Shown here piece by piece: positions 26,690 to 62,026 of a DNA stretch of 64,000 nucleotides. Location: the NCBI GenBank assembly GCA_050084515.1, contig CM114271.1:4774001-4838000 (forward strand), given 5' to 3'. The stretch is from Blasia pusilla. Its lineage: Eukaryota. Both the position numbers and the translations under genes were made by a program. The first letter of the stretch is position 1. The number at the start of each line of letters is the position of its first letter. Below the pieces are notes generated by a model. That model made no database searches. It saw nothing but the letters and a program-made list of their open reading frames with translations, and had not been told where the DNA came from.

Positions 26690-28458
26690 CAACGTCAATC
26701 TAGTATAGTGTCGTGACGCCCATAGCCACAACATATCACTGGTTTTTGCACTGTGTTGCTTGCGGCCACATTGCCATCTTGATCAGGGAGCCACCTCATG
26801 TTTGAGGATCAAAGCATGTGTTTTCGATATAATAGGGGATTTTTTTTATTTGCATCATGTTATCGAGTGTTGTGTTGTTTATGGCCATTCCATGTTGTCA
26901 TTGTTGTACTGTACCACCTTGACCGCACCGCATCATCGAGGCGGATTGAGTATTTTCATCATTGAGGAGTATGACATGATAATAGAAATATTTTTCTTCA
27001 CGAAAAAGTGGATACCGAGGTTGTAGTTGCCAAGGTGCTACATTGATATTGGTGTAAGATCACTCATTATGGTCTCTTACTTGCACTTGGGAAGGATTTC
27101 TAGGTATTAGATGTTTGTTATAGCATTCGGGTTGTATGGATGTTATGAGCGAAATTTATGTCCGAGTGTAAGAGCCATAGATATGTGTGGGATATATAGG
27201 TTGCTAGTTATTCAAAATTGATAAGAGGATAGATTAGCATAGAGTGTTATTGCAATGTACCGCTTGTTGTCGTATCATACACGTGTCCGAGGGAAGAGTA
27301 TGCATGTTGAGTATTGCTTGTGTTAGTTTTGGGTGACCCAGAGATTACTTGTGGATTTGAGAGTGGTCGTACAAGAAGGCATGAGGGTCATCATGATTTT
27401 CTTTTGAGAGGCAAAGTGATACACCCAAGAGTAGCACTAGAGGATTTATGCATAAATGGTAGAATATATTGAGGGTCTCCATATAAGGGACCACTTCAAC
27501 CTCCTTTTGTATCATCCTCGGACAAAAGAAAGGTCTTAGAGGAGAAGTTTTCCAATGAGTTGCCACGTATGTTGAGTAGTCCTACCATTTGGGCATACGA
27601 GATGGGTGATTAGTACAGAGGGTCGTGTAAGTTTTGAACGATCGTGTGTACTATTGAGTGACACACTTTCATTGCAAATTTTATGATTATGAGTTGGTAT
27701 AACTCACAGAGGGCGAGAAATTATAGAGAGTTCAACCCTTTCATAACATGGAATGGGTTGTTCGAGCACCTAGAGGTGGCGCCCATGTTTGATTACCGTG
27801 ATTTTTCCCTCAAATATTTGCCAAAGATTGACACTTAGAGACTCTTCTTTGATCTACATTATGTGACATGGGTTGAGCCCTTTCAACTTGAGATGAAGGA
27901 GCTAGGGGAGGCTACTTCCTCTGCCACCAATGATCATCATTCAAGAGTGATTCGGAATGGAGAAGTTACACCGTTTAGTTAAGTTGCATGTTGGCCATGT
28001 GAAGGCCAATTGACTGGTAAACACAGAGGTGGTTTGGGCAACCTTCCATTCAAGTTGTTTAATGAAATTATGAGGATCTTGCTGAATTTGGAGGAGCATC
28101 AATCTCATTCTCCAACCCATATTATGGAGAAGGTACTCATTTAGGGTAATTTTTGTTCACAAGTGATAATGAATTTATATTATGTTCTTGCTTGGATAAG
28201 CCCAACAATGTTTTTGGATGCATCAAGCTTAGGTACATAAGCATGTTGATTGTGCCTTTGGTGGACAAAATTGATGCCATATGAGGTTTTGAGGAGGGCC
28301 CCTCCCATTTCTTAGAATCTTGTTGGATCCCATCTTGGATCTTGGACATCAATCATAAGCAATGAGACACGATGAGTGACCTCCGTTGAAGACAATCAGT
28401 AAGGTTGGCATGCAACAAGAAGCCTTTCACTGTATTTATGATTTCTTCCACCTCCTAT
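26690..28458 (+). mobile_element. Old remnant (copy 3) of the DNMT-carrying Gypsy family: leader, Gag N-terminus and DNMT motifs IV-VIII
   Basis: 27690-27885 translates SWYNSQRARNYREFNPFITWNGLFEHLEVAPMFDYRDF...HYVTWVEPF, matching copy 1 Gag. From 27992 it reads WPCEGQ...LFNEIMRIL..LEEHQSHSPTHIMEKV, then WISPTMFLDA...LWWTKLMPYEVLR. It is cut by CACTA at 28459. Confidence 0.85.

Positions 28459-31463: not shown

Positions 31464-31465
<2 letters not shown>

Positions 31466-31527
<62 letters not shown>
31466..31527. repeat. (AG)n microsatellite, left flank of copy 1
   Basis: Perfect dinucleotide run abutting the element end. Confidence 0.98.
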
Positions 31528-31530
<3 letters not shown>

Positions 31531-31638
31531 CGTGCGCATACACATCACTATCACCGAACACACACACAAACACGCACGATCCCATGCTAACTCATGGCAT
31601 CCAAACAATGAGACAAGAAGTACCAAAATATTTCCAAT
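31528..31638 (-). repeat. Copy 1 short terminal repeat B2
   Basis: TATCGTGCGCATACACATC...AAATATTTCCAAT is duplicated at 32157-32281. Confidence 0.9.
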
Positions 31639-32154
31639 TAAAGTAAGATCCAATCTCTCTCTACACAATCTCACACCATAGCTCTCAAAGGTGTGCACTC
31701 TCTCTCATGTCAAACCAAACCCACTCTCCTAATGAGAGGCTTGGGTTACACTCACAAGGCAAGGGACCATAGCTCCGCCGCCTCATGCCAAGAGGTTCAA
31801 CTAAGAGAGAATGAGCTCTCAAGCTCTCTCTCCTTGGGATATATACCCCTCCCCTCTTCCAAGCTCTCTCCATGGTAACATTTTCTCCCAAGTCACCTCC
31901 TTGGCTCTTGACCTGATGTAGGAGGTCAAGGGCCACTTACCAAAAATATAAAGTCGATCATATACTCAAAATGGTACTTACCTAAAATAGTAAGTTCCTC
32001 AATATGGCTCCAAATGAGCCAAAACGAAGGGGAAACCTGCTCTCTCAGGTTTCCCGGGGCCTCAGCAGGTCATCCTCAACCTCCAAGGCTTGTCCTTCAC
32101 TACTCTTGAAGATTCTCTACTAGATCTCACTGATCTATCCTAAAGGACGTGACA
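31639..32154 (-). repeat. Copy 1 LTR-like long repeat A2
   Basis: TAAAGTAAGATCC...GGACGTGACA is a direct repeat of 41412-41888, with scattered substitutions and one ~40 bp indel. Confidence 0.95.
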
Positions 32155-32156
32155 GC

Positions 32157-32292
32157 TATCGTGCGTATACACATCGCTACACAACATACATTGTCACCGA
32201 ACACACACACAAACACGCATGATCCCATGCTAACTCATGGCACCCAAACAACGAGATAAGAAGTACTAAAATATCTCCAATCGCCCCCCTAG
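32157..32292 (-). repeat. Copy 1 short repeat B1 with adjacent purine tract
   Basis: B1 is 32157-32281. The minus strand reads CTAGGGGGGCG immediately before it (polypurine-tract-like). Confidence 0.85.
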
Positions 32293-32467
32293 CTGGTGGT
32301 TAGGTCCCTCTAACTCCAAATAGCCATCTATCCCTACCTACCATGACATACATCTCTCGGACGCTAAGAGCGAGAAGGCCGGATGCTCATGTGGCCCCAT
32401 CGTTAGTCGCCTTCCTATCATCCATATCAGAGAAAAAGTCGGGATCAAAACCTACCTAGTATCTCCT

Positions 32468-33781
32468 CTATGTACATTTGGGATACATCCATTGTCCTCG
32501 AGGAACCCTAGTGAGAGGTGGTCTCATACATGCCATATGCCAACCTCTCGAACAACTATCACAGACTAGCATCATGGCCGCACCACGGGCAGAACCACAG
32601 AACATACAACGCAAGCCTGTAGGAACTACTGCTAAGCTCGGATCCACTGTACCATCAATGTTAGGAAGGTGACATGGTGCACAATTACGCACATGGTCCT
32701 TCCATACCATACCATCGCGTCCCTCCAGCAAGAGAACACCGGATGGCAAAACGTCACGCACTCTCAAGATAGTGCGCCCTGCAGTCATATCCAACGTCGT
32801 CGGTGAAGTCTGCTGCAAGTAGACATAATCTCCCTGATGAAACCTCCGGATAGTTGGTCGATAACCACCACCCGGAATAGTCGCATACCTCAACGTATCC
32901 CGATGCTGCACAATCGCCAAGTTCTCGAACGCCATGAGCATCACTCTCCGAAACAACTCAACCCTCTGAGAACATGCTCGGATCCATACATCTGGGTCAT
33001 CAAGGTCCACCACCTCACCAGCATCTTGACAAATGGCCGCAGGTAAATCTGGCTCTCGGCCATAAAGTAGCAAGTACGGTGAAAAAGACGCGAAGGATGC
33101 ATGCCTGCTGAATCTGTATCCCATCGCCAACCATGGCAACTGGAGGTCCCAATCTCCTACGTGACCTCTCTGCAAGCCATACTTGCGTAAACCCCTCTTC
33201 ACCGTCTGCACAACTCTCTCCGCTAATCCATCCGCCTCGAGATGATCTTGCAAAGTTGTGCGGTGGTCGATCAGCGCCTGATCACACAAGGCTTGAAACT
33301 CACCGCGAAACTCGATATCCTGGTCTGTCAATACCTTAGCCGGTGCGCCATAATGACTTAGCACTCTGTCAAGGAATGCATAAGCTACTCCCTCACTCAC
33401 TTTGTCAGGCAATGCAACCAACTCGATCCACTTCGAGAAGTGCTCGATCACCACCAACACATAACGATTGTGACGCTCCGTCAAAGGCAAAGGTCTTGCA
33501 AAATCCAAACTCCATATATACCCTAAGCCCATGATCGGAAATGGATGCAACTATGCAGTCAGAGCATTGAACAATGCTCAGACCCGATCACACACCATGC
33601 ACATGGAAACAAACTGCTGAACGTCAGTTTGCATGCCTCGCCACCAATACTGAATCTGGAGCAAGTTGTACCTCCGCTGTAACCTAAAGTGACCCAACTC
33701 CTCATGGGCATGCTGCACTAGTCGTGCTCTCTGCGAAGGATGCGGCACTACGCGTATTCTGCCATCCTCCCAAACCCTCAA
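32468..33781 (-). pseudogene. Copy 1 integrase (HHCC plus DDE core) with C-terminal PHD finger
   Basis: HAHEELGH...CMVC; WSLDF...VLTDQ...LAERVVQTVK. Terminal CMFC...LVCDSC...WHMAC..PPL..VP.G.WM(Y)PKC. Confidence 0.93.
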
Positions 33782-33817
33782 AACATGTGTCCCCTTCCAA
33801 TGGAACCGTCTGGCCCG

Positions 33818-35520
33818 CTATAGGATCCGATCCCGCTCTCTAGCATCCACGATGCTCTCAACGCTGCCAGTACGAAGGTACTCGAAGACTACTCCATTAT
33901 CATGAATATCTCGGCCACTTGTCGTGTTCTCACTGGCCTTGGGATCCAAGGACTCTCCACTAGACCTCGCCATCGAAGTCTCCACACTCTGGCTCTCCAT
34001 AGCCAACATGCCTAAATAGGCTGACGCGTGCCATCCTGGCACCGACTCCTCATCACTCTCTCCATGCCATCGAGCTCCAGTCGCATCTCGGTGACTCGGG
34101 CATGGGTTACGACTCAACCCATCTGCATCATGGTTGAGCATCCCAGGTCTATGTACCACCTGAAAATCATACTCCTGCAACAACAGAGCCCATCTCGCAA
34201 GCTCCCCTGTAAGCTTATCGGACTCCATCAACCACTTCAGTGGTTGATGATCAGTGATGATGGTAAAGGGGTTGCCGAATAAGTAACACCTGAAATGCAC
34301 GACAACCCACACCACAGCCAAGCACTCACCCTCATACGAGCTGTACTTTGCCTCTGCAGCGTTGTTCGAGCGGCTAGCATAAGCCACCACAAACTCTCTA
34401 CCCTCATCATCATGTGGGGTGAGCACCGCTCCAAGCCCCAACATGCTCCAATCTGTGTGCAACAGGAAAGGACGCCTCCGGATCGGTCTCCTCAAGATGG
34501 GCGCAGACGTCAACCTGTCCTTGAGCAACTGAAATGCTCGCTCTTGCTCATCCTCCCAGTGCCACTCATGATCCACCTTGATCAGCAAGGTCAGGGGATT
34601 TGCAATCGAACTGAATCCCTTGACGTACCGCCGATAAAAGTTCACCAATCCCATGAATGTGCGAACACGACTCACATCTATAGGGCGTGGAATGCGTGAG
34701 ATAGCCTCTTCCTTTGTATGTTGAATACCAAGGCCCCGTGGGTATATCGTAGAAGAACTTGCACTTGCCTGGATGTAGCTTCAGCCCATATAATTGCAAT
34801 CGTCAAAACATCTCCTCTAGATGTCGCTCATGCTCCTCAACCGTGGCGCTAAAGACTATGATGTCATCAATATAACACTTAGAAAAATCCAGACCAGCCA
34901 AGATCCTATCCATGACCCTTTGAAACTCAGTCGGGGCGTTCTTTAACCCAAATGGTAAGAACCGCCACTGGTACAAACAATCCTTCCCGTGAGGATCGAT
35001 GCCCCAAAATACCGTCTCCTGCCTGTCCTCCAATATGATAGGCAATTGATGGTATCCGGCTCGCAAATCCAATGAACTGAAGACCTTCGCGTGACCAATC
35101 ACATCAAAGATCTCTTCAGCGGTGGGCATGGCATACCTATCAAACTTTGTGTGTCGATTGATAGGTCGGTAATCCCTACACATCCGTCTATCCATCCAGT
35201 TGTCATGCACATCCTTCTTGGTGGGCATGACAGTGGCAGATGCATACTCCCCATGGGACATCTCCACTAGTCCTGCTCCGATTAAGTCTTGGCTCCTACT
35301 CTGAATCATAGCCCTCTCCATATCACTTTACCTGTAGGGTCGTCGAAAGATCGGCGTGTCACTCGACAACTCAATGCGGATCCCCGGTCCCTCCAGCGTA
35401 CCCAAATCCTCCATGCTAAATGCAAAGCAGCTCTTATAACTTCTGAGGAACTGATGTATCCGGCGCTGCTCTCCTCTTGTCAACTTAGGGCCCATAATTG
35501 GCTCCCAAATCTCCATCGTG
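33818..35520 (-). pseudogene. Copy 1 reverse transcriptase and RNase H
   Basis: RRMCRDYRPIN, SLDLRAGYHQ, LPFGLKNAP, CYIDDII; then LHTDWS..GLGAVL, YSSYEGECLAVVW, ITDHQPLKWL, ADGLSR. Confidence 0.95.
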
Positions 35521-35849
35521 ACTACGGTAGGACTCTTTGGCGCGGGTATCGGTGGTTGCTATGGTGCAAGCCAATCTTGAACAACAACACTCGGCTGCTC
35601 TTGTGTTGCCAACTGCAAATTTTGATCTCCTCCACGTGCAGTGCTCTAAACCACGCTCGATGTTGTGGCTATCATCTCCTGGCGTACCTGCAAAACATCC
35701 CAAGAAGTCCAAGGATGTCTCTCCCGATCTCCCATGGTGTGTCGATCTCCTCAGGTCCCGCCCCCAGCCACTGGCTCCACCGTCTTGGTACGCATGGGGC
35801 TCAGCAACGCAACCATTGTGATGTGTCTCGATCTCATCCGACGCTACTC

Positions 35850-36870
35850 ATCCACTCCCAAGCTGAAGATCCATGTCAAGCACTTTAGGTCCATCGCCTG
35901 ACCCAAGACATGGCGTCGTGATGCCTCTGATACTGACGGGACTGCCGTCACTCCTGTGGGAAATCCCATCGCCCGCTCTCTCTCATCGGCGTCGGGCTCC
36001 ACCAACCTCTGAACCGGGTCATCCCAAACCAAGCCAGGACCGGCCTCCTTGTATGCATAGGAAGCGGGAAAACTCACAAACGTGGGAAAGGCTGCCTGCG
36101 GCCTGCCTACCCTATTGACCACAGTCAGCGATGGTCGATCATGGTGCCTCACTGCTTGTGATCGATGACCTGGATCTATAATGGAATCCACTAATAAATG
36201 GGAGGGGCACTCCACTCTTGCATACACCCCCCGTAACACCGTATGGGGCACCAAGTTGGTCCACCATAGACGCGTGCGATGGGCTCTAGAACCTACACTC
36301 GCCGCATCCAAGAATACTGTTGGGCCGATCCAGGCACGCACCTGATGAGCATTCGTCACCACCCGTGACCTGGAGTCTCCTAAGATAGGCACATTCTCCA
36401 GAATGTAGGCTAGAGAATAAGACTAGTGCTCCTGCAACTACTGTAAGACCCTCAACATCTCCCAAAACAATCTGGACCGAGTGTCAGCCAACCCGCTACC
36501 TCATCCAGCACTTGATTGGCCCTGATATGGCCAACGGCTGATGTATCTGAGCAACCATCCAAGCCTCACATTCGGCGATATGGCCAACCGGAAATGACCA
36601 AATCAATGGTCCCTACCCGCTCTAAGTCATGCGCCCCCAACGACGAAATATCCCTCGGTAGGGAACTCTGGTATCCCTGTACCGCGGACGCAGACAATAA
36701 GTCGCGAAAATGTAGACGTAATTGCGCCACATATTGTAGTGAGACGCGCCTTGCAACATCATCACTCTCCACATACAGGTACTGTTGTACTCGCACTCCT
36801 GCCTGCAAATCAACAGCTAACCCGGTGCTAATCCCTCCAAAGAGATCTAACACTCGAATACCCTCCTCCG
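35850..36870 (-). pseudogene. Copy 1 DNMT3-like C5 cytosine methyltransferase domain
   Basis: Motif I RVLDLFGGISTG (DLFGG at 36833-36847), II YVE, IV GWP(Y)QG.SSAG, VI ILENV (ENV at 36390-36398), VIII DAASVGSRAHRTRLWWTNL, IX ERERAMGFP, X RRHVLGQAM. Confidence 0.92.
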
Positions 36871-37078
36871 GGATACACCACACAATGGGTGTGGTATCCA
36901 AGGGTGTCATCATAGCACTCCCTGCTACCTCGGGTTCCTCAGACCCATCCCGCTCCGATGCAAACGCCTCACTCCACGCGGTTTGCACGTGCTCATCTAC
37001 CAATCGTCGAAGCTTCTCAGTCGAGCCCCACAACGGCACCACTCCTCTACGGAATGATGCAGCTACCATAATACTCCT

Positions 37079-37618
37079 CTACATAGAAATGTCAGGAACG
37101 GGAGTATCCTCTGCATGGACATGTCCCTCAATAAAATCACTAGGCCAAGTGATCGCACTGCTAAATGCTGCTAAGGTCGCGATCTCTCCTGGCCGTTGCT
37201 CGATCACTTCACTTGTGAATCGAACGGGTAATGAACTAAGGCGCCCATCACCTGACTGCCATCCTGGTCTGTAGGACGCTGACTCCTCCCAATAATCCAG
37301 GGCAAACCCCATTGGGTATAACACTGCTCCACCAACCAAGATGTCATAAGACTCTACATCAATCACTATCGCCTTGGCTCGCACCACGGACTCATCTGTA
37401 CGATGTCCCGGGCGAATTCTCACCACGACCTCCTGTCGGGTGATATACTGTGTGGTACTCGCTCCACCCAAGGATGTCTGTATCCGGAATGGACAACACT
37501 CCACATTGGCTCTTGTCAAGCCCAATCCTCTGAATGACGCTTTCCCCAACATCAGGGGTTGCGCCTGAATCAACAAGGCAGCCTGCGGACTAAAAGCTCT
37601 ACCTCCGAGACTCACCAA
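37079..37618 (-). pseudogene. Copy 1 retroviral-type aspartic protease region
   Basis: Degenerate LLDSGAQP (copy 2 reads DSRAQP) and YDILVGG, located between Gag and the DNMT. Confidence 0.7.
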
Positions 37619-38194
37619 CTAGAATACCTCTCCTCGGTTATCCAGCAACACAACACTAGGAGAAGCCATGGCACGCTCTATCGCGGGTCTAGCGGGCATC
37701 TCCACCATCCTAGCAGCCGCAGCCTGCCATGCATCTAACGTGGACGGCCCGAGCATCCGCTCCAAGGGCAGGTCCATCACCTCCTCTGCAATCAACTCTG
37801 AACATGATGCAGGAACTCCAACTCTGCACTCACATAGTGAAGCGGCCAGCCGAAAAGCCTTGGCGGGCGTACCCCCCAATCTCATAACATCGGAAGCAGA
37901 AAATAAAGGAGTGCGGTACACAACGGTGGCCGCCCCCAACAACGTGCTCGACACATGCCCCACCTCAGCATCAACAATAGGAGTCGTCGTAATCGCTTCT
38001 CCCATCACCCTCCGTGCCTGCACACCAACAACATCACCAGCTCTCCAAGGACTCTGATCAAGACCCATCGATGGGGTCCTCATCGCCTCGGACAACGTGA
38101 AAGATTGAGGAAGCCTAGTCTCTTTCGTGGCTTCCCCTCGCTGTGGATCCAACTCTGCGGTTGCTCCACGCGTCACAACTGCGGCGGCCTCCAT

Positions 38195-39990
38195 CTAGGC
38201 AACCACGCACATCCAACCAGGATCCTCCAGATCTCTGGCTGCTCCAAATGATGTCGATGCCACGGATCCGGCATCGGGTAACCTCAATGGCATAGCGGTA
38301 ATCTCCTCATGTAGCTGACTGATGTATCTGAGCAGCCATCCAAGCCTCACATCCGGCGTCTCCCTCGGCGGGTCTAGGTGGTGGTACTCTACCTCCTCCA
38401 CGGACAGCTCCACCACCCTGTCGGGCAACTCCAGCTCCTCGTCCCCCAACGGGACCATCTAGTGCACGATCTCTAGGCCCACCTGGACCGGGTACTCGCT
38501 TTGGTGCCCTCTCTGGCCCTCGGTCCGGACGTAACTCAGGATGTAAACTGAAACACCTGGCGTGTGTATGACCATACCTCTGACAATAGTCACACTGATA
38601 ACCTTCTGGTGGAGCACCATCTCCTCCTCCATGTTGAGGCACATGTCCATGACCTTGACGAGTGCAATCGCGCTAATGATGGGCTCCACCACATGACCAA
38701 CAAGTAATAGTAGGCGGCTGCTGTTGAGCCGCATATGAAGGCGCAGGTCTCTGTGGCACGGCCTCCAGGTGTCCTCCTTGAGCTCGTGGTGCCACAGTCA
38801 ACCTATCCCGGAGTCCACGTTGCTGCACAAGTGGTGCAGACAATCGTGACTGCTCTCGCCCAGAACCCATGGTGGCTAGGCTCTCCTCCGCCATGTTGCG
38901 CTCAATGTTCTCGGCAGTCCTAAAAACATCTCTCAACGTAGGGGAGGTGTTCATAAGAAGCACCCCCTCCCACACCCGTGTGTGCAGGGTCCGGTCTAGC
39001 ATCGCGTACCATGACTAGATAGCCTGAGCCTCTATCATCCCTTGAGTAACGTTGATCAACCGGCGCAAGCAAGTGTAAGCCTCACGCAAACTCTTACCCG
39101 GGCGCATTTGGAAGTCGTGGATGCTCTGCAACTTCTTCATCCGTACCCCATGGTAGCTCGCCCTCAATTCAGCAAAGAACTCAACCACAGGGTTGAACCT
39201 GGGACGAGCCCGACTAGACGCTGCAACTGCTCCCATGCGAGTGACCCCTCTTAGAACGTCACTAGTGGAAGAAGAAGTACCCTCTCCTGACTCCTCCTCC
39301 TCCTCCGAGAACGGCTCCGTCCATGACACATAGTGTGGGTCATAGTAGAGTCGCCGTGCCTCAATCTCCTGGGCATATCTATGGGAAAACTCATGGTAAT
39401 CGTCCATGGGTGCCCCCTCTAAATGCTGGAAAATACCGTTCCATGCTATAAACGGGTTGAACTCTCTAGAGTTCCTGGCCCGCTGGGAGTCACACCAACT
39501 CCTAAACTCTGCAATAAAATCGTGCAACTCAATCGTACCTATTACACCTGAAAACCTATGCGGTCCTCTACCCCGGTCGTCCATCTCGTACGCCCAACTG
39601 GTAGGACCACTCACAATGTGTGGAGATGTGCTCACAAACTCCTCTACACCCTCCCCCTTGTTTGACGATGACACAGAAGGAGTTCGAGGTGGTCCCTAAA
39701 GTGAAGATTCTCGGAACCTCACGCCACTCCGCGTAAAACCTCTAGAGCTACTCTCGGGTTCACCACCTCACCTCTCCAAGTCCTGAACGGACGACGTGAT
39801 GACCCTCGTGCCCTTCTCACCCGATCACTCTTGCCTTGCGAGTAATCCCTTAATCACTCATCCCAAACATGCGGCACTTGATCTACACTCTCCCTCCCCG
39901 AGACATGTAACGTGCGGCAATAAGCAGCGTGGTGGGGCAAATTGACCAGGCTATCATTTCATTGATAACCTACCCTCAACTCCGGACATC
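38195..39990 (-). pseudogene. Copy 1 Gag with two zinc knuckles
   Basis: CWSCGGAHH*RDC and CDYCQRYGHTHARC; QMRPGKSLREAY major-homology-like motif. The start codon is uncertain. Confidence 0.8.
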
Positions 39991-41411: not shown

Positions 41412-41885
41412 TGTAAAGTAAGATCCAATCTCTCTCTACACAATCTCACACAATAGCTCTCAAAGGTGTGCACCCTCTCTCATGTCAAACCAAACCCACT
41501 CTCCTAATGAGAGACTTGGGTTACACTCACGAGGCAAGGGACCATAGCTCCGCCGCCTCACGCCAAGAGGTTCAACAAAGAGAGAATGAACTCCAAGCTC
41601 TCTCCATGGTAACCTATTCTCCCAAGTCACCTCCTTGGCTCTTGACCTGACGTAGGAGGTCAAGGGCCACTTCCAAAAAAATATAAAGTCGATCATATAT
41701 TCAAAATGGTACTTACCTAAAATAGTAAGTTCCTCAATATGGCTCCAAATGAGCCAAAACGAAGGGGAAACCTGCTCTCTCAGGTTTCCTGGGGCCTCTA
41801 CAAGTCATCCTCGACCTCCTAGGCCTGTCCTCCACTACTCTTGAAGAAACTCTACTAGATCTCACCGATCTAACCTAAAGGACGT

Positions 41886-41888
<3 letters not shown>
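41412..41888 (-). repeat. Copy 1 LTR-like long repeat A1 (5' end)
   Basis: TGTAAAGTAAG...GGACGTGAC. No TGG-type primer-binding site follows on the minus strand. Confidence 0.95.

Positions 41889-41978
<90 letters not shown>
41889..41978. repeat. (GA)n microsatellite, right flank of copy 1
   Basis: Perfect dinucleotide run. Confidence 0.98.
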
Positions 41979-43729: not shown

Positions 43730-44858
43730 TTAGTGTGATGGTGATTCACATGACTTCAGATTAGCTAATAGAAAACCTTCCTTGTCTCTTTTCATAGATC
43801 TCTGATGAGATCCCCATTTAGCCCTAACCCACCTTCCTATCATTAAGATAATCATCCAATTTGCAATACCATAGTCAAATGCCAAGATATTTATGAGAGT
43901 GAAAACATAGCTAAAGATAGAGTTAGTTTGAGGCAGACGCTCATCCACACATATAGCCCTAATATCACTATCAGAAGTGCTAAACGTATTGATTCCATCC
44001 CTTCCTTCTACCCTATAATGATTCCCATATCCTTCCATAATCTTGTATGAAAACACCTTAGTTTGAGGTGGTATGGACAACTCAAATGTCATTGGGTCAA
44101 TAAACCACTAGTTTCTCCTTAGCCTCTCGGAGAATTGCTTTATGAACCCAATCTTCAAAGGGTATATGTGGATTCTCCAATTCATACTTACTGCACATAA
44201 AAAGTGTAGAAGTGTAAGTAAGAAGAAAGAAATTGATTAGACAAATGAAGCCAAAATATCATATCTTAATCTAAGGTTGCAAAAAAATTTCCATGAATTT
44301 CATAAACAAATTCCAAGTACAACTCATCGAATCCAGATTTGCATTGATTTTTTGTTGTCTAAAATATAGTGATGACCCAACAGTAACAAATCACAAGAGA
44401 GTCGCACAGATATCCATGCCCCCCTTCTAGCTCCTCACCTATTACTCGGTCTTCCTTGCCATTATCCCAAACACGTGTCATAATAGCCTCAAATCTCTTC
44501 ATATATTCTGTAACAAATCCAATGGCCTCATCCTTAACATAACCTTCTACCATGGATTCCTCTGGTCGAGCTCTTGATCTCACATACTTCTTAATTCTTC
44601 CCAGATATCTTTCCATCGGGTACATCCATCGACATGCCACTAGTCCATAAATATCAACTCTTCTACAATATGGATGAGTAAATGTGTCATAACATCAAGG
44701 AACGAAGGAGGGAAATGCATCTCTAATAGATAAAAGGTCACAATAGTATCCTTGCAGAGCCTCTCTAGTTGGGATGGATCATAAACTTTGACACATAAGC
44801 TTCTCATGACCCTACTTAATCTCATGATAATCATTCTCACCTCTTCGTTCATGAGCCT
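43730..44858 (-). pseudogene. CACTA transposase C-terminal part (DUF4218/DUF4216-like)
   Basis: LEMHFPPSFLDVMTHLLIHIVEEL and RWMYPMERYLGRIKKYVRSRARPEESMVEGY are conserved CACTA TnpD motifs. Confidence 0.9.
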
Positions 44859-45484
<626 letters not shown>

Positions 45485-46979
45485 AAGAAATTTGATCGAT
45501 TTACAGTCCAGCCAGCCACTACGTACGCCGCGCTACTACCTGGAATTGCCTCCGTAGCGGGTAGAGCTCAACATGTACTTTCTCCGCCCTCACAACATTC
45601 GGAAAGTGTCGGCCACTGTATCGTGTCTCATCTATTGCTACATTTGCGTTGAACCTGCCTAACGCACTAAGCCTTCGCATGTAGCCAACCGCTCTACCAA
45701 AGTCGTTGTGTCACCGCCCCCGCATTTGCCGCTGCACGTCGTCCATCGCGGCCCTATGACACACGCTTTTGTTGCCGCATGCCTCTCGCCGCCACCGGTC
45801 CTTATTGCTGTTGGTATGACCCGGTCCTCATTGTTGCGCCGTTGCTGCCCGATTGCGTACCTACTATGTCCGGACACCGCACTACATGTTGTTCGTTGGC
45901 CAAGCCATTCAGCCTCGGTAGCCATGCCGTTGCAAAACCGCTACCGCGTAGCTGATGTCTACGATGTCCAATCATTCTCTACCGCGGTTGGGTCTTTGTC
46001 GTCCGAAAACCTTACATCCATCCACTTGCGTCCGTTTGGATTCATTCGACGACATCAACGGCCATCCTCTACCGTTTGCTACCTGGTTGGAAATTGGGCA
46101 AAGAGACTTGGGGACCATTGATTTTAATTTGCGCTTCCACCACATATCAGTTTTGGTCGCCGCCGTCTAGGAAGTTGCATCATCGACCGGCGAGGGCTTG
46201 TGATCCTTGGATTTATGGGGTCCAAGTGTTTTTCTGCTTTGCTATGTTGTGGTTGGTAGCCGTTGGACTACGATTGAGTATCATAACCTAAAGCAGCAAC
46301 GCGAATCCGATTTCCGCCTTGTGTCCCTCATGACCGGACCGCACCATCTTGATCGCGAAGCCACACCATCTGTGGAAGTAGAGCGCACGTGTTTGTTGAG
46401 GAGGGTATGCCGTTGAGTGTCACATCCCATTCCCGAGTGCCATGCAGGTTGTAGCCGCACCGTACCGCTGGAACAGCACTGCACATCGAGGATATTTGAG
46501 CATCGTCAATACCAAGAGAGTATGACATGCTATTTGGAGGAGTTTGTCTTCACGACCAAGTTGGGATCGAGGTTGGAGTTTCTGAGGGGCGACGTCGATA
46601 TTTTTTTCAAGTTACCCATTATGGTATTTTATCCTACATATGTGAGGGAATTCCGCATATTGGGCAGTTATGTTGAGAGCATTATTGATATATGTGGTTT
46701 AGGGGACATAGACCTCTGTGGGATGTCCAAACTTGAGGGTATGTAATGTCGATGAGATGATAGGGTGATGGCCGATTTTCTGGACCACGCGGATTGTTGC
46801 CACACAGCACAGGTCTCCCTAAGAGAGCGTAGATTGAGTGCCACCTGTTTAGTTTGAGTGATTACTCGCAAGATTGAGAGTAATCGCGTGAGAGGGGCAC
46901 GAGGATCATCACGGCGTCCTTTCGGGACTTTAAGAGGTGAGGTGATGGACCTGAGAGTAGCTCTAGAGGGTTTATGCAT

Positions 46980-49420
46980 AGTGGCGTTTTGAGGATCTCC
47001 ACGTGAGAGAACACCTCAATCTCCTTATGTGTTGTCTTCAGACCAGGGGGAGAGCGTAGAGGAGTTTGTCATTGCATCAGTGCACACAATGAGTGATCCT
47101 ACAATTTGCGCATGCGAGATGGACGACCGGGGTAGAGGATCACGTAGGTTTTCAGGTGCTTTAGGCAATATAGAGTTGCACGACTTCATTGCAGAGTTCA
47201 GGAGTTGGTGTGACTCACAAAGCAGGCTAGGAACTCTAGAGAGTCCAACCCGTTCACAGCATGGAACAGTATGTTCCAGCATTTAGAGGGGGCACCCATG
47301 GACGATTAACATGAGTTCTCTCACAAATATGCCCAGGAGATTGAGGGCATGGAGACTCTACTATGACCCACACTATGTGTCATGGATTGAGCCGTTTCCA
47401 AATGAGGAGGAGGACTCGAGAGAGGCTACTTCCTCTTCTACCCGTGATGTTTTAGGAGGGATGACTCAAACTAGGGCAGTTGCACCATCCAGTTGGGTTC
47501 ATCCCAAGTTCAACCCCGTGGTTGAGTTCTTTGTTGAGTTGCGGACGAGCTACCAGGGGGTACGGACAGAGAAGTTATGGAGCATCCACGACTTCGAGAT
47601 GCGGCGGGATGAGAGTTGCGTAAGGCCTACACTCGCTTGCGCCAGTTGATTAATGTCATTCAGGGGGTGATAGAGTCCGAGACTATCTAATCCTAGTACG
47701 CGATGCTGGATCAAAACCTGCGGACACGGGTGAGGGATGGGATGCTTCTTATGCACACCTCTCCTACGTTGAGAGATGTTTTTTGACCGCCGAGAACATT
47801 GAGCGCAACATGGCAGAGGAAAGCATAACCACCATGGATTCTAGGCAAGAGCAGTCACGATTGCATGCACCACCAGTGCAACAACGTGGATTCTGAGATA
47901 GGTCTGTGGCACCACAAGCTCAAGGAGGATATCGAGAGGCCGAGCCACAAAGACGGGCGCCTTCATATGCGGCTTAAAACAATCTCCTGCAATTATTTGT
48001 TGGGCATGTCATGGAGCCCATCACTAGTGCGATTGCACTCGTCAAGGTCATGGACGCGTGCCTCAACATGGAGGAGGAGATGGTGCTACACCAGAAGTTG
48101 ATCAGTGTGACTAGTGTCATAGGGACGGTCAAACACACGCCAGGTTTTTCAGCCTATACCCTAAGTTACGTCCCGACCGAGGGCCAGAGAGGGCACCAAA
48201 GCAAGTTGCTGGTCCGGGTGGGCCTAAAGGTCGTGCACCAGGTGGTCTTGTTGGGGGACAAGGAGTTGGATTTGCCCGAGGGGGTGGTGGAGTTGCCTGT
48301 GGAGGAGGTAGAGTTCCACCACCTAGACACGCCAAGGGAGACATCGAGCGTGAGGCTGGGATGGCTGCTCAAATACAGCAGCTACAACAACAGATTTTTG
48401 CTATGGCATTGAGGTTATCTGATGTCGTATCTATGGCATCGACGTCTTATGGAGCAGCCGGAGATATGGAGGATCCTGGCTGGATGTGAGCGACTGTCCA
48501 CTTGGAGGCAGCCGATGTTACTACACGTGGAGCCACTTTAGACTTGGATCCATAGAGAGGGGAAGCCAGGAAACAAACCAAGCTTCCTCAATCTTTCACA
48601 TTGTCCAAGGCAACGAGGACCCAATCCATGGGTCCTGATCAGAAATCCTGGGGAGTTGATCTTGTTGGTATGTAGGCACGGAGGGCGATGGGAGAAGCAA
48701 GTGCAATCACTCTTATTGGTCATGCTAGAGAGGAGCATGTGTTGAGTACGATGTTGGGGGCGGCCACGATGGTGTAGTGTGCTCCTTTGTTTTCTGCTTC
48801 CGATGTTATGACGTTGGGAGGTACGCCCACCGAGGTTTTCTGGCTGGACACTACGCTATGTGAGCGTGGAGATGGTGTTCTTGCATCGTGTTCAGAGCTG
48901 ATTGCAAAGGAGTTGATGGACTTGCCCTTGGAGCCGATGCTCAGGCTGTCCACCTCATATTCATAGCAAGTTGCGGTTGCTAGGATGGTGGAGATGCCCG
49001 CTCGACCCGCGATAGAGCGTGCCATGGTTGCTCAAAGTGTTGTGTTTCTGGATAACCGCGGATAGATCTTCCAATTGGTAAGTCTAGGAGGTAGAAAAAT
49101 TTTCCGCAACGTGTCTTGTAAGATTCAAGAGCGCAACCCTTGATGTTGGGGAAAGCGGCATTTGGAGGGTTGGGCCTAACGAGGGCCAATATGGAGCGTT
49201 GTCCATTCAAGATAAAGACATCCTTGGGTGAAGCGAGTACCACACAATTTATCACCCGATAGGAGGTCGTGGTAAGGATTCGCCCTTGATATCCTATAGA
49301 TGAGTTTGTAGTGCGATCCAAGGCGATAGTGATAGAATGGAAAGTCCTACGACATCTTGGTTGGTGGAGCAACGTTGTACCCGATGGGATTTTCCGTGGA
49401 TTACTAGGAGGAGTCAACAT
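46980..49420 (+). pseudogene. Copy 2 Gag and protease remnants
   Basis: EMDDRGRGSRRFSG..G.IELHDFIAEFRSWCDSQ and FNPVVEFF match copy 1; DSRAQP at ~49122. Confidence 0.85.
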
Positions 49421-49829
49421 CCTACAGATCAGGTTGGCAGTCCGATGATGGACGACTTAGTTCATTATCGTTCGATTCACGGGTGGAGTGATCGAGTGAC
49501 AACCAAGAGAGATGGCGACTTTAGCAGCATTTAGCAACGCCATCACGTGGCCTTCTGAGTTGACTGAGGGGCATGTCCATGCAGAGGAAAACCCCGTGCC
49601 TTACACTTCTAGGGAGAGGAGCATTATGGTAGCCGCATCATTCAGTGGAGGAGAGGTGCCGTTGTGGGGCTCAAGTGAGGAGCTTCGTCGCTTATCTGAT
49701 AAGCACGTGCAGACAGCCTGGATTGAGTCATTTGCACTAGAGCGTGTCGAGTCAGAGGGACCCAAGGTAGCCGTGAGTGCTCCTAAGACCCCTTTGAACA
49801 CCACACCAATTGTGTGGCGTATCCCAGAA

Positions 49830-50830
49830 GAGGGTATCCGTGTGTTGGATCTCTTTGGAGGGATCAACATTGGCTTAATTGTTGTTTTGCAAGCGAGAGT
49901 GCGCGTGGAACAGTATTTGTACGTTGAGATTGATGATGTTACGAGGCACGCTTCACTTCACCATGTGATGCAATTACTGCTCTGATTTCCCGACTTGTTT
50001 TCTGCGTCCGCCATCCAAGGTTACCAGAGTTCCCTACCAAGGGATATTTCATTGTTGGGGGCGTAGGACTTGGAGCGGGTAAGGACCATAGATTTGGCCG
50101 TGTTAGGGCCAATCAAGTGTTGGATGAGGTAGCAGGTTAGGTAACACTTGGTCCAAGTTATTTTGGGAGATGATGCAGATCCTGCGACACTTATAGGAGC
50201 ATCAGTCTCGTTCTCCTGCATACATTATGGAGAATGTGCGGACTTTGGGCGATTCGAGGTCCCGCATGGTGATGAGTGCATATCAAGTGCGCGTATGGAT
50301 CGGCCCGACAGTGTTATTGAATGTCGCGAATGAACATTCACCAGCTCATTTCCCGCGTCTCTAGTGGACCAACAAGGTGCCACATGAGGTTTTGCGGAAG
50401 GTGTATGTGAGAGTGGAGGGCTCCTCCCAGTTGTTGGTGGATTCTATTGTGGATCGAGGTTTCCAGTCACAGGTAGTACGACACAAAGATCGACCTCCAT
50501 TGACTGTGGTCTATAGGATTGGCATGCCGTGCGGAGCCTTTCCCATGTTTAAGAGTTTTCCTGCTTCCTATGCATTCAAGGAGGCCGAGCCTGGCTTGGT
50601 TTGGGATGACTAGGTACAACGTTTTCCTGCTTCCTATGCATTCAAGGAGGCTGAGCCTGGCTTGGTTTGGGATGACTAGGTACAACGGTTGGTGGAGCCA
50701 AACTCTGATGAGCGAGAGAAAGCGATGGGATTTCCCACCATAGTGACGGCAATATTGTCACTATCAAAGGCATCATGACATCGTATCTTGGGGCAGTCGA
50801 TGGATCTGAATTGCTTGACATAGATTTTCA
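49830..50830 (+). pseudogene. Copy 2 DNMT3-like methyltransferase domain
   Basis: RVLDLFGGINIG (DLFGG at 49848-49862). Catalytic Pro-Cys codons CCG TGT at 50098-50103, ENV at 50230-50238, EREKAMGFP, ILGQSMDL. Confidence 0.9.
50555..50686 (+). repeat. 66 bp tandem duplication inside the copy 2 DNMT
   Basis: GTTTTCCTGCTTCCTATGCATTCAAGG...TAGGTACAAC occurs twice with one mismatch; single copy in element 1. Confidence 0.95.
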
Positions 50831-51199
50831 GCTTAGGAATAGTTGAGCAACGTCGTTTGAGGATGCGATTGATCACAATTATTGCGTTGGTGAGCCCCAT
50901 ATCGAGACGGTTAAGGCAATGGCTAGGGGTGAGACTCAAGGAAATCAACGCACCAGGGATGATCAGGAGAGAAACCCTTGGACTTCTTGGGGTGTTTCAC
51001 ATGTATGCCTAGAGATAATAGCCATAGAATCGAGCTTGGTTCCAAAAACTGCACGTGGAGGAGATTAGAGTTTGCAACTGGCTGCAACAAAGTAGTCGAG
51101 TGTTGTTGTTCGAGACGGGGTTGCACCATAGCAACCACCACCACCCGCGCCAGAGAGTCCTACCCTAGTCACGATGGAGACTTGAGAGCCACAGACTTG

Positions 51200-51768
51200 G
51201 TCCCTAAATTGACAGGAGGAGAGCGGCACCAGATACATCAGTTCTTTAGGAGTTTTATGAGTTATTTTGCATTTGGCTTGCATGATTTTGGTACGCTGAA
51301 ATGTCTAGGGATCCGCATTGAGTTGTCGAGCGACACGCCGATCTTCCAACGACCCTACATGTACAATGATATGGAGAGGGCTCTGATTCATAATAGGAGC
51401 CAGGACTTGGTTGGAGCACGCTTAGTGGAGATGTTGCATGAAGAGTATGCATCTGCCACTATCATGCCCTGGAAGAAGGATGTGCATGGCAACTGGACGG
51501 ATAGGCAGATGTGTGGAGATTACCAACCTATCAATTGGCATACGAAGTCTAATAAGTATGCCATGCACACCCCTAAGGAGATCTTTGATGCTATTGGGCA
51601 TGCAAAGGTCTTTAGTTCGTTAGATCTTCGAGCCGGATACCATGGATACCATCACCTGCCTATCAGATTGGGGGACAGGAAAAAGACTATACTTTGGGAC
51701 ATCCATCCTCACGGGAAAGATTGCTTGTAACAGTGGTAGCTTTTACCATTTGGGTTAAAGAATGTCGT
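51200..51768 (+). pseudogene. Copy 2 RT, N-terminal part
   Basis: RQMCGDYQPIN, SSLDLRAGYH, LPFGLKN, then cut by an LTR. Confidence 0.9.
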
Positions 51769-55036: not shown

Positions 55037-55048
55037 GGTATCATGCCA

Positions 55049-58092: not shown

Positions 58093-58104
58093 AGCTCGAT
58101 ACCA
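58093..58104 (-). promoter_or_regulatory. Primer-binding site, tRNA-iMet-like
   Basis: TGGTATCGAGCT, 2 nt inside the 5' LTR; the plant consensus is TGGTATCAGAGC. Confidence 0.85.
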
Positions 58105-58106
58105 CT

Positions 58107-61203: not shown

Positions 61204-61376
61204 AGTAGGTAGTTTAAGATTCCGACTTGTGTTGGTGACATGGATGACAAGAAGGCAACTAACGATGGGGCCATATGAGCACTCGGCCTCTTCTTGCTCT
61301 TAGCGTTCGAGAGATGTATGTCATGGTAGGTAGGGATAGATGGCTATGTGGAGTTAGAGGGACCTAACCACCTTCT

Positions 61377-62026
61377 AGGGGGCTATTGGAGATATTTTGG
61401 TACTTCTCATCTCGTTTTTTGGATGCCATGAGTTACCATGGGATCATGTGTGATTGTTCGGTTACACTGATGTGTATGCATCTTTTAGGATACATTTGAG
61501 AGATCTAGTAGAGTGCCTTCCAAGATATTGGAGGAAATCCTTAGGAGGTCAAGGATAACCTGCTAAGGCCACAAGTAACGTACGAGAGCAACTTTCCCTT
61601 TTATTTAGCTCATTTGAAGCCATATTGAGGAACTTATTATTTCGGGTAAGTTACTGTTATGGTATAGTTAACTTTCCAATTTGGGAAGTGATCCTTGACC
61701 CGCTAGAGAAGGTCAAGGGCCAAGGAGGTGACTTATGAGCATATGTTATCGTGGAGAGGGTTTCAGAGAGGGAAGTGGGTATACCTCCAAGAGAGAGAGC
61801 TTGAGGGCTCATTCTCTCTTTGTTGAACCTCTTGGCATGAGGCAAGAAAGCTATGGTTCTCCTTATCTTGTGTGTGTAATCCAAGCCTCTCATTAGGAGA
61901 GTGGGTTTGGTTCACATGAGAGAGAGTGCACACCATGGAGAGCTTGGTGTGAGATGTTGATGGAGACATTTGATCGATTTATTGAAGATATTTGTATGTT
62001 ATGTAACGATGTGTATGCGCACGACA
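61377..62026 (+). repeat. Copy 2 3' terminal block: purine tract, B1, A2, B2
   Basis: AGGGGG then ATTGGAGATATTTT...GATGTGTATGCA (B1), the long repeat A2, then ATTGAAGATATTT...GATGTGTATGCGCACGACA (internally deleted B2). Confidence 0.88.

What the first reader, a model, noticed from the sequence alone, without database searches (positions are those of the whole stretch)
35850..36870. Retrotransposon polyprotein carries its own DNMT3-like cytosine methyltransferase
Seen: between protease and RT lies a complete C5-MTase domain with motifs I, II, IV, VI, VIII, IX and X in order. Removing a 53 bp insertion puts its two halves in the same frame as the protease region. The same domain occupies the same place in copy 2 (49830-50830) and partly in copy 3 (27992-28458). 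The catalytic Cys is TAT in copy 1 but TGT in copies 2 and 3, and the next codon is CAG, TAG or GAA, so the copies reconstruct GWPCQG...ENV...RxR. Known: RVLDLFGGISTGL, AHRTRLWWTNL and ERERAMGFP resemble DNMT3 (RVLSLFDGIATGL, AHRARYFWGNL, EMERVFGFP). DNMT-carrying retrotransposons have been reported in dinoflagellates and a charophyte alga, but are not part of the standard land-plant Gypsy architecture. Inference: the enzyme is a stable family component that could be packaged with RT and methylate the new cDNA or the target site. Novelty depends on the host being a land plant, which I cannot confirm.
Basis: partly seen in the sequence, partly recalled or inferred. Interest (0 to 1): 0.93.

Follow-up and report, generated by a model that had tools for sequence, protein, structure and literature searches.

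The report
Liverwort retrotransposon carrying a DNMT3 methyltransferase
Three decayed copies of a liverwort Gypsy-type retrotransposon carry a DNMT3-like DNA cytosine methyltransferase inside their polyprotein, a design already described in a charophyte alga and here seen in a land plant.

Summary
Both halves of copy 1 match DNMT3A best among solved structures. Without a copy-specific 53-bp insertion, protease, both methyltransferase halves and RT share one frame.

The host is a liverwort. A neighbouring OBERON-like gene is 70-74% identical to Marchantia, Riccia and Calypogeia, against 55-57% for mosses.

The element belongs to the Gypsy-DNMT3 lineage described in Klebsormidium nitens (PMC5890265). 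Relatives are abundant in Marchantia, Calypogeia and Sphagnum. It shares with that lineage the PR-MTase-RT position and an unusual A1...B1-A2-B2 repeat layout. Relatives of unknown host share the C-terminal PHD finger.

The domain is under purifying selection, with dN/dS 0.19-0.30, like RT at 0.25. The catalytic Cys is kept in 179 of 182 family domains. Related copies without the 53-bp insertion are transcribed in sense.

All three window copies are dead. Enzyme activity and the proposed cDNA or target methylation are inferred, not shown. I rate it a new member of a known kind, of moderate interest.

The parts
41414..41888 (-). Copy 1, 5' terminal repeat A1 (LTR-like). It starts TGTCAC in the other three repeats aligned; this copy reads CGTCAC there. 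It abuts a (TC)n run at 41889-41978.
   Evidence: It is 87% identical over 516 columns to 31639-32153. See also the alignment A1 and the sequence.
39015..39695 (-). Copy 1 gag-like ORF
   Evidence: ORF. It is homologous to the N-termini of the Marchantia proteins. No Pfam hit.
38307..38672 (-). Copy 1 CCHC zinc-knuckle region (C-X2-C-X4-H-X4-C seen by eye)
   Evidence: ORF. It matches the ZK segment of homologues, and the distant homologue P0052 has Pfam zf-CCHC. No Pfam hit on the window ORF itself.
37079..37618 (-). Copy 1 protease region, decayed, with frameshifts relative to transcribed relatives around 37563-37582
   Evidence: It matches the PR segment of homologues, and P0026 has Pfam Asp_protease_2 there. 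Indels appear in most RNA reads. No Pfam hit on the window ORF.
36569..37078 (-). Copy 1 MTase first half: N-terminal linker and helix, the RVLDLFGGISTGL block, through to GWP-Y. The catalytic Cys codon is TAT.
   Evidence: Family HMM 1.2e-41 over 37024-36572. DNMT3A is the top PDB hit at E 0.03.
36527..36579 (-). Copy-specific 53-bp insertion that splits the MTase. A 12-nt GTTGGCCATATC is duplicated at 36588 and 36535, with a filler between them copied from the element's own 38318-38348.
   Evidence: Repeat positions. The filler matches 29 of 31 bases. RNA reads skip exactly 53 bp: 22, 14 and 29 reads in three runs, plus 1 DNA contig.
35847..36536 (-). Copy 1 MTase second half: WPYQGQSSAG, ENV, HRTRLWWTNL, ERERAMGFP and LGQAMD blocks. 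It has 3 in-frame stops and ends at a TAG that is CAG in copy 2.
   Evidence: Family HMM 3.6e-109. PF00145 22.6 bits. DNMT3A 1.2e-5.
34803..35327 (-). Copy 1 reverse transcriptase
   Evidence: Pfam RVT_1 1.2e-18
33818..34780 (-). Copy 1 RNase H
   Evidence: Pfam RT_RNaseH 3.7e-35
32468..33817 (-). Copy 1 DDE integrase with a C-terminal PHD finger (PHD about 32474-32608)
   Evidence: Pfam rve 6.7e-11 and PHD 7.6e-9
32157..32281 (-). Copy 1 repeat B1, directly upstream of A2. A purine run (AGGGGGG) precedes it.
   Evidence: Local alignment to B2 covers 125 nt with one 14-nt gap, score 164.
31639..32153 (-). Copy 1 3' repeat A2
31528..31638 (-). Copy 1 repeat B2, the 3' end of the insertion, followed by a (TC)n run
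49674..50886 (+). Copy 2 MTase domain: Cys codon TGT followed by TAG, a frameshift at 50092-50108, a 66-nt tandem duplication at 50555-50687, and several stops
44857..51762 (+). Copy 2, 5' part: A1 at 44857-45488, then gag to RT
   Evidence: It is 76-80% identical to copy 1.
58998..61975 (+). Copy 2, 3' part: RNase H, integrase, B1 at 61385-61479 and A2 at 61481-61975. It is separated from the 5' part by a nested younger element.
   Evidence: A B2 after A2 could not be shown (score 23 against a shuffle maximum of 26).
27403..28458 (+). Copy 3: an AT-rich, deleted remnant with gag-like sequence at 27403-27979 joined to the second MTase half at 27983-28458. The Cys codon is TGT and the next is GAA.
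   Evidence: GC is 0.33-0.38 there.

Best explanation
The window holds three dead copies of one family of Ty3/Gypsy-type retrotransposons of a liverwort. In this family the single gag-pol reading frame encodes a DNMT3-type C5 cytosine methyltransferase between protease and reverse transcriptase. It also encodes a PHD finger at the end of the DDE integrase. The family belongs to the Gypsy-DNMT3 lineage first described in the charophyte Klebsormidium nitens.

Shown here:
- The domain is homologous to DNMT3.
- It sits in frame in pol.
- Family members keep the catalytic residues.
- It evolves under purifying selection as strong as RT and integrase.
- Related copies are transcribed from the sense strand.

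Inferred:
- The enzyme is translated as part of Gag-Pol, so it is present where cDNA is made.
- It methylates the new cDNA or the DNA at the integration site. This would set the epigenetic state of the new copy, for example by marking it as self or dampening its own activity.
- The PHD-integrase reads chromatin to guide insertion.

The three window copies themselves are inactive. They carry stops, frameshifts, a Cys-to-Tyr change in copy 1, a nested insertion in copy 2 and a large deletion in copy 3.

The confidence given is for what the element is. I put the inferred mechanism (methylation of its own cDNA or insertion site) at about 0.35.
For: - Identity: a family HMM built without window rows hits only the three copies.
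- DNMT3 affinity: the profile scores DNMT3A 2.2e-25 (92.7 bits), DNMT3C 2.7e-24 and DNMT3B about 4e-23. DRM scores 5.9e-16, M.HhaI 1.9e-8 and DNMT2 1e-7. No DNMT1 appears among the 57 hits.
- Fold: an AF2 model of homologue P0002 has pLDDT 68.8 overall, with core blocks mostly near 90. Its best Foldseek matches are DNMT3B, 3A and 3C, E 8e-17, target TM 0.77-0.82.
- In frame: MT1 and MT2 are contiguous in all homologues that have both. The order GAG-ZK-PR-MT-RT-RH-INT recurs among the 63 homologues. Single ORFs hold PR-MT-RT-RH-INT.
- Selection, copy 1 against copy 2 (dN/dS): MT1 0.19, MT2 0.30, RT 0.25, INT 0.28, PR 0.33, gag 0.32.
- Selection, intact MT ORFs from other loci: 0.13-0.17 in 5 unsaturated pairs. 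One near-identical pair gives 0.82.
- Residues in 182 family domains: catalytic Cys 179, Glu of ENV 181, Arg-x-Arg 179 and 177.
- Lineage: the profile hits K. nitens GAQ93235.1 at 2.3e-113. The window copies nest in a clade with 8 Marchantia rows and 1 Calypogeia row, local support 100.
- Repeat layout: A1...B1-A2-B2 is seen in copy 1. It is also seen in 5 complete and 3 partial loci of the 33 related loci of 9 kb or more. The 2018 paper says the Klebsormidium elements have DIRS-like repeats.
- Expression: three RNA-seq runs of the same species label cover all 30 bins. The strand bias is roughly 6- to 50-fold in most bins and points to the element's sense strand. Reads skipping the 53-bp insertion number 65 in all (22, 14 and 29).
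- Host: the OBERON-like gene is closest to liverworts.
Against: - No enzyme activity has been shown for any member of this lineage. The K. nitens domain gave no methylation in yeast, which the authors called inconclusive.
- Pfam PF00145 only just passes on the window pieces, and 3 of 5 pieces get no hit.
- Almost no RNA reads are 99% or more alike to this copy (0, 3 and 0 of 4816, 4367 and 5191 reads). Expression is therefore of relatives whose intactness I could not check.
- I could not see whether transcripts carry TGT at the catalytic codon, because only 40 of 1644 differences were listed.
- Pairwise dN/dS between dead copies mixes selected and neutral history.
- No host-type plant DNMT3 was available, so no tree places the domain relative to host DNMT3 or DRM.
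- The MT tree is FastTree only.
- B2 could not be shown in copy 2.
Confidence: 0.85

Rival explanations
1. The domain is kept but is not a DNA methylase. It could act as a DNMT3L-like regulatory or binding module that recruits or blocks host methylation machinery, or it could methylate RNA.
For: The K. nitens Gypsy domain showed no de novo DNA methylation in yeast. In 80 of 182 family domains the residue before the catalytic Cys is Glu instead of the usual Pro. These are mostly in the other architecture, not the window's clade.
Against: The residues needed for catalysis are kept: Cys 179 of 182, Glu of ENV 181 of 182, Arg-x-Arg 179 and 177 of 182. The window's clade has the standard GWPCQG. 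Human DNMT3B also failed in the same yeast assay.
Confidence: 0.1
2. The methyltransferase acts mainly in trans on the host genome. Its retention would then reflect an effect on the host methylome rather than on the element's own cDNA.
For: The family is abundant and transcribed. The 2018 authors raise this possibility for Symbiodinium.
Against: Nothing here measures methylation. K. nitens has an ordinary plant-like methylome despite its copies. Embedding in Gag-Pol argues for action near the cDNA, which is inference.
Confidence: 0.1
3. The MTase is a chance capture or a separate insertion in these copies only, or an artefact of reading degenerate sequence.
For: Raw ORFs give no Pfam methylase hit, and the read-through hits are marginal.
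Against: Three window copies carry the domain, at the same position in copies 1 and 2. There are 63 homologues with the same order and 562 cluster representatives at E of 1e-30 or better. The 53-bp break is absent from transcripts. dN/dS is like RT.
Confidence: 0.01

Closest known systems
KnitGypsy-Dnmt3 of Klebsormidium nitens (de Mendoza et al. 2018, PMC5890265; I read sections 9, 10 and 11 and keyword passages)
   Same: A DNMT3-type domain sits inside the Pol ORF of a Gypsy element, with motif order not rearranged and purifying selection acting on it (they report Ka/Ks below 0.2). Its repeats are described as DIRS-like. Direct homology is clear: K. nitens proteins P0055 (36% identity, 1.9e-29) and P0067 (2.3e-113 to the family profile). 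In P0055 the RT starts right after the MTase, as in the window.
   Different: The host here is a land plant, a liverwort. The liverwort copies form their own clade. Identity to the alga's domain is only about 36%. A PHD finger on the integrase is shown here; I could not see their figure to compare.
SymbioDIRS-Dnmt3 of dinoflagellates (same paper)
   Same: A retrotransposon polyprotein carries a DNMT3-like domain. That one was shown to methylate CG de novo in yeast.
   Different: The backbone there is DIRS. The window's element has a DDE integrase (Pfam rve) and the Gypsy domain order. The authors treat it as an independent acquisition.
Cellular DNMT3 (animal DNMT3A/B/C; plant DNMT3 such as PpDNMT3b, PMC6453930, passages only)
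   Same: These are the best sequence and fold matches, with the same linear block order.
   Different: Identity is about 20-23%. Pfam reports no domain other than PF00145 around the MTase in the homologues scanned. The domain is embedded between protease and RT of a mobile element.
DRM (domains rearranged methyltransferases)
   Same: DRM is a related catalytic domain and the second-best group in PDB (5.9e-16).
   Different: DRM matches only profile positions 82-213, mapped to the C-terminal part of the chain. This is consistent with its permuted order, which I recall rather than tested. The window's domain is collinear with DNMT3A.
Chromoviruses (Gypsy elements with a chromodomain at the integrase C-terminus; recalled)
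   Same: A chromatin-reader module is appended to the integrase.
Split direct repeats of Ngaro/PAT-type DIRS-like elements (layout recalled, not from a call)
   Same: The A1 ... B1-A2-B2 arrangement of terminal repeats.
   Different: Those elements use a tyrosine recombinase. This family has a DDE integrase.

Membership tests
C5 cytosine DNA methyltransferase (Pfam PF00145) | Profile match above the curated cutoff | tested here: met
   Window copy 1 second half scores 22.6 bits and copy 2 scores 22.2, against a cutoff of 22. Three of 5 window pieces get no hit. Seven of 8 homologues scanned score 30-54 bits; the eighth, the K. nitens model P0055, gets no hit.
C5 cytosine DNA methyltransferase (Pfam PF00145) | Catalytic Pro-Cys, ENV and Arg-x-Arg blocks present in order | tested here: met
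   For the family: Cys 179 of 182, Glu 181 of 182, Arg 179 and 177 of 182. In the window, copy 1 has Tyr for Cys and copies 2 and 3 keep Cys. All three copies carry stops.
C5 cytosine DNA methyltransferase (Pfam PF00145) | Transfers a methyl group to C5 of cytosine in DNA | not testable with these tools
   The only published assay of the lineage, on the K. nitens domain in yeast, was negative and called inconclusive.
DNMT3 clade | Closer to DNMT3 than to DRM, DNMT1, DNMT2 or bacterial enzymes | tested here: met
   Profile against PDB: DNMT3A 2.2e-25, DRM 5.9e-16, M.HhaI 1.9e-8, DNMT2 1e-7, no DNMT1. Foldseek's top matches are DNMT3A, 3B and 3C. No tree with plant host DNMT3 could be made.
DNMT3 clade | Catalytic blocks collinear, not permuted as in DRM | tested here: met
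   Three collinear stretches align to DNMT3A: profile positions 81-116, 153-273 and 359-398 to chain residues 13-48, 68-185 and 246-285.
Gypsy-DNMT3 lineage (KnitGypsy-Dnmt3) | DNMT3 domain inside the Pol ORF of a Gypsy-order element, in one frame | tested here: met
   Frames. Homologue architecture. RNA reads lack the 53-bp break.
Gypsy-DNMT3 lineage (KnitGypsy-Dnmt3) | Sequence homology to the K. nitens retrotransposon DNMT3 | tested here: met
   P0055 scores 1.9e-29 to the window piece. P0067, which is GAQ93235.1, scores 2.3e-113 to the family profile.
Gypsy-DNMT3 lineage (KnitGypsy-Dnmt3) | [quoted passage not shown] | tested here: met
   dN/dS is 0.19 and 0.30 between window copies, and 0.13-0.17 between intact ORFs of related loci.
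Gypsy-DNMT3 lineage (KnitGypsy-Dnmt3) | DIRS-like (split) arrangement of the terminal repeats | tested here: met
   Shown in copy 1 and in 8 of the 33 related loci of 9 kb or more. Not shown for copy 2. The paper's figure was not visible to me, only its legend.
Ty3/Gypsy LTR retrotransposon | Order PR-RT-RNase H-integrase with a DDE integrase | tested here: met
   Pfam RVT_1, RT_RNaseH and rve in that order on the minus strand.
Ty3/Gypsy LTR retrotransposon | Two identical LTRs that bound the element, with a target-site duplication | tested here: inconclusive
   A1 and A2 are 87% alike, but an extra repeat B2 lies outside A2. Both ends sit in (TC)n, so no duplication can be read.
DIRS-like (tyrosine recombinase) retrotransposon | Encodes a tyrosine recombinase instead of a DDE integrase | tested here: not met
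   The integrase ORF hits Pfam rve and Pfam reports no recombinase on it. No dedicated search for a tyrosine recombinase was run.

The most novel reading that the evidence does not exclude
An ancient streptophyte lineage of Gypsy elements, carrying DNMT3, a PHD-integrase and split direct repeats, has persisted from charophyte algae into land plants. It is still transcribed in liverworts, including relatives in the genetic model Marchantia. Its enzyme is active and methylates the element's own cDNA or insertion sites. Part of the liverwort methylome would then be written by transposons rather than by host enzymes.
Probability: 0.3. Interest if true: 0.75.

Novelty: new member of a known kind. 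Interest (0 to 1): 0.5.

Why it matters
What retrotransposon-encoded DNMTs do is an open question. The 2018 paper could not show activity for the Gypsy type, and its host alga is a limited experimental system.

This window shows the same lineage in a liverwort, under selection and with transcribed relatives. The protein searches show many relatives in Marchantia polymorpha, which has genetics and published methylomes. That would make the question testable in a tractable land plant.

It also warns annotators. "DNA (cytosine-5-)-methyltransferase" entries in bryophyte proteomes can be transposon pol fragments. DNMT3 counts in land plants should exclude them.

In my searches and the passages I read, I found no paper that describes these elements in liverworts or any land plant. 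Two papers speak loosely of "streptophytes" and cite the 2018 work. Supplements were closed and may hold such rows.

Tried and rejected
- No whole genome is held for the window. A genome-wide census of intact copies was therefore impossible.
- Pfam on the raw ORFs gave no methylase hit. A Copper-fist hit there is below its cutoff, and I treat it as chance.
- The look-up of sequencing runs listed no indexed RNA holder. Organism names are coded, so the species could not be named.
- A2 contains one row I entered in the wrong frame. It was not used for any search, and A3 replaced it. I used it only to read off the RT-like sequence that follows the MTase in K. nitens P0055.
- A tree with host DNMT3 and DRM could not be made, because no such sequences came from any tool.
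- The protein atlas gave only a generic Streptophyta methylase cluster.
- Most of the 80 metagenome loci are decayed: only 18 ORFs of 300 aa or more carry the MTase.
- A B2 repeat in copy 2 was looked for and is not supported.
- A search with the family alignment for longer proteins named no species beyond Marchantia and Sphagnum. This is weak evidence on vascular plants.
- I considered and rejected the reading that the LTR is simply B+A or A+B. The sequence after A1 and before A1 is not B-like in either copy.
Full report
**What is there.** The region lies in a retrotransposon on the minus strand. Stop-to-stop frames and Pfam give the order gag (39695-39015), a CCHC knuckle region, protease (37618-37079), two unexplained ORFs (37078-36566 and 36422-35844), then RT, RNase H and integrase. 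The scores are RVT_1 1.2e-18, RT_RNaseH 3.7e-35, rve 6.7e-11, and a C-terminal PHD finger at 7.6e-9. This is the Ty3/Gypsy order.

The two unexplained ORFs are the two halves of a C5 methyltransferase.
- Read raw, they give no Pfam methylase hit.
- Read through with X at stops, PF00145 just passes on the second halves of copies 1 and 2: 22.6 and 22.2 bits against a cutoff of 22. It fails on both first halves and on copy 3.
- Against all PDB chains, the second half hits only DNMT3A, 3B and 3C, best 1.2e-5.
- The first half has DNMT3A on top, at a weak 0.03.

**Is it more than chance, and are there three copies?** I built a profile from 18 database homologues, with no window sequence in it (A3). 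I then searched the six-frame translation of the window. It hits three places and nothing else:
- copy 1 at 37024-36572 (1.2e-41) and 36542-35637 (3.6e-109)
- copy 2 at 49674-50886, in three pieces
- copy 3 at 27983-28300 (2.8e-20) plus a weak tail

**The 53-bp break.**
- The 12-mer GTTGGCCATATC occurs at 36588 and again at 36535.
- The filler between the two is a 29-of-31 copy of the element's own sequence at 38318-38348.
- Protease and the first half have codon starts in one class modulo 3. The second half, the linker and RT are in another. Fifty-three bases is exactly the difference, so without it all are in one frame.
- The stop after ...GVDE is CAG in copy 2.
- In every database homologue that has both halves, the first ends where the second begins.

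**Host.** No genome is held and run names are coded. The window does carry an OBERON-like PHD gene (18612-21173). Its conserved part is 72% identical to Marchantia polymorpha, 74% to Riccia sorocarpa and 70% to Calypogeia fissa. It is 55-57% identical to mosses and 53% to a lycophyte. The host is therefore a liverwort that is none of those three.

**Relatives.**
- The second half finds 63 longer proteins. The best are Calypogeia fissa (67%), many Marchantia polymorpha "hypothetical proteins" (57-65%), Sphagnum, and Klebsormidium nitens (36%, 1.9e-29).
- The family profile, run against 1.84 billion cluster representatives, gives 562 hits at E of 1e-30 or better. One is K. nitens GAQ93235.1 at 2.3e-113.
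- A scan of metagenome contigs gave 403 relatives, of which 80 loci were kept.
- In a FastTree of 184 domain rows, the two window copies are sisters. They sit in a 14-row clade with 8 Marchantia rows and 1 Calypogeia row, local support 100.

**What is known.** de Mendoza et al. 2018 (PMC5890265; I read sections 9, 10 and 11) described KnitGypsy-Dnmt3 in K. nitens. It is an intronless DNMT3 inside the Pol ORF of a Gypsy element, with Ka/Ks below 0.2 and repeats "the same as that of a DIRS retrotransposon". The window's family is the same lineage.
- That paper does not mention Marchantia or liverworts (0 occurrences).
- Later papers say "streptophytes" while citing it.
- Five searches, and the passages I read in a Marchantia review and the Marchantia 4mC preprint, turned up no description of these elements in a land plant.
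- Supplements were closed, and subscription papers are not in the library.

**Is the domain maintained?** Nei-Gojobori dN/dS between copy 1 and copy 2:

| Region | dN/dS |
|---|---|
| MT1 | 0.19 |
| MT2 | 0.30 |
| RT | 0.25 |
| Integrase | 0.28 |
| Protease | 0.33 |
| gag | 0.32 |
| RNase H | 0.48 |
| Linker | 0.61 |
| Knuckle region | 0.85 |

These values include neutral decay after insertion. The domain has therefore been at least as constrained as RT.

Between intact MT ORFs of related loci, the five unsaturated pairs give 0.13-0.17. One near-identical pair gives 0.82, as expected for recent copies. Most other pairs were saturated.

In 182 family domains the catalytic Cys is present in 179, the Glu of ENV in 181, and the two Arg in 179 and 177.

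**Expression.**
- Three 2026 RNA-seq runs of the same species label were laid on 32400-40500, at 85% likeness or more.
- All 30 bins are covered in all runs.
- First mates lie on the plus strand roughly 6 to 50 times more often in most bins. For the usual stranded libraries this means RNA of the minus strand, which is the element's sense strand.
- Almost none of the reads are 99% or more alike (0, 3 and 0), so they come from related copies, not this one.
- 22, 14 and 29 reads, plus one DNA contig, skip exactly the 53 bp.
- Transcribed relatives therefore carry an unbroken MTase frame at that point. Whether they are otherwise intact is unknown.

- Copy 1 has the layout A1 (41888-41414), internal region, B1 (32281-32157), A2 (32153-31639), B2 (31638-31528).
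- A1 and A2 are 87% alike. B1 and B2 align over 125 nt with one gap.
- Both outer ends abut (TC)n runs, which places B2 inside the insertion.
- The same layout appears in five complete loci (L057, L058, L064, L067, L075) and three partial loci, out of 33 related loci of 9 kb or more.
- It could not be shown for copy 2.
- As I recall it, this is the split-direct-repeat layout of Ngaro/PAT-type elements. Here it goes with a DDE integrase. How such an element is copied is unexplained.

**How it most likely works.**
- Shown: the enzyme module is an in-frame, selected part of pol in a transcribed family.
- Inferred: it is made as part of Gag-Pol and so sits with RT and integrase. It methylates new cDNA or DNA at the insertion site. 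The PHD-integrase reads histone tails.
- The purpose is open. The 2018 authors list self-marking of cDNA, protection from deamination, an effect on local chromatin, and self-restraint.
- Against the inference: the K. nitens domain gave no methylation in yeast. Human DNMT3B failed there too, so the authors call it inconclusive.

**State of the window copies.** All three are dead.
- Copy 1 has Tyr for the catalytic Cys in both copies of the duplicated 12-mer. It also has the 53-bp insertion, three stops in the second half, and frameshifts in the protease region.
- Copy 2 has a small deletion at the same TTGG...TTGG spot, a 66-nt tandem duplication and several stops. A young nested element also splits it between 51762 and 58998.
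- Copy 3 is AT-rich (GC 0.33-0.38) and lacks everything between gag and the second MTase half.

**Verdict.** The interpretation as a stable family component is supported. The functional idea is reasonable but untested. The novelty is smaller than claimed: this is a known kind, Gypsy-DNMT3, found in a new host group, with relatives sitting unremarked in Marchantia annotations. Interest 0.5.

Noticed in passing
proteins P0064-P0230; P0047: Most family representatives from metagenomes have the methyltransferase in a different place: RT-RNase H-MTase-integrase-PHD (39 complete). The window's order PR-MTase-RT-RNase H-integrase has 3 complete examples. On the MTase tree the two layouts need only one change (39 against 96 typed rows). 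The hosts of the second type are unknown.
   Followed up: partly
182 family domains: In 80 of 182 domains the residue before the catalytic Cys is Glu (WEC) rather than the usual Pro (WPC, 93 of 182). This is unusual for C5 methyltransferases.
   Followed up: no
window 36537-36567 and 38318-38348: The filler of the 53-bp insertion is a near-exact copy (29 of 31) of a stretch 1.8 kb upstream in the same element, flanked by a 12-nt duplication. It looks like a templated repair insertion.
   Followed up: partly
window 51768-58995: A different, younger Gypsy element on the minus strand is nested in copy 2. It has gag, PR, RT, RNase H and integrase ORFs. Its LTRs are 100% identical over 300 nt (52015-52314 and 58350-58649).
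   Followed up: partly
window 34348-35394: 14, 26 and 14 RNA reads join 34348 to 35394, skipping 1045 bases of RT without canonical splice ends. Internally deleted family members appear to be transcribed too.
   Followed up: no
window 18612-22388 and 4907-6399: There are two host genes. One is an OBERON-like PHD protein, whose large exon was used to place the host among liverworts. The other looks by eye like an F-box/kelch-repeat protein; I did not search it.
   Followed up: partly
window 40706-40845: An array of five 20-nt tandem units lies in the long untranslated stretch between A1 and gag of copy 1. That stretch differs from the matching part of copy 2.
   Followed up: no
window 31465-31527, 41889-41978, 45172-45330: Long (TC)n/(GA)n microsatellites lie at both ends of copy 1 and inside the 5' repeat of copy 2.
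   Followed up: no
proteins P0026, P0029, P0030, P0035; locus L052 976-5082: In one subfamily the long ORF runs gag-PR-MTase and stops about 115-150 residues after the MTase in five separate sequences. RT may therefore be in a second frame there.
   Followed up: no
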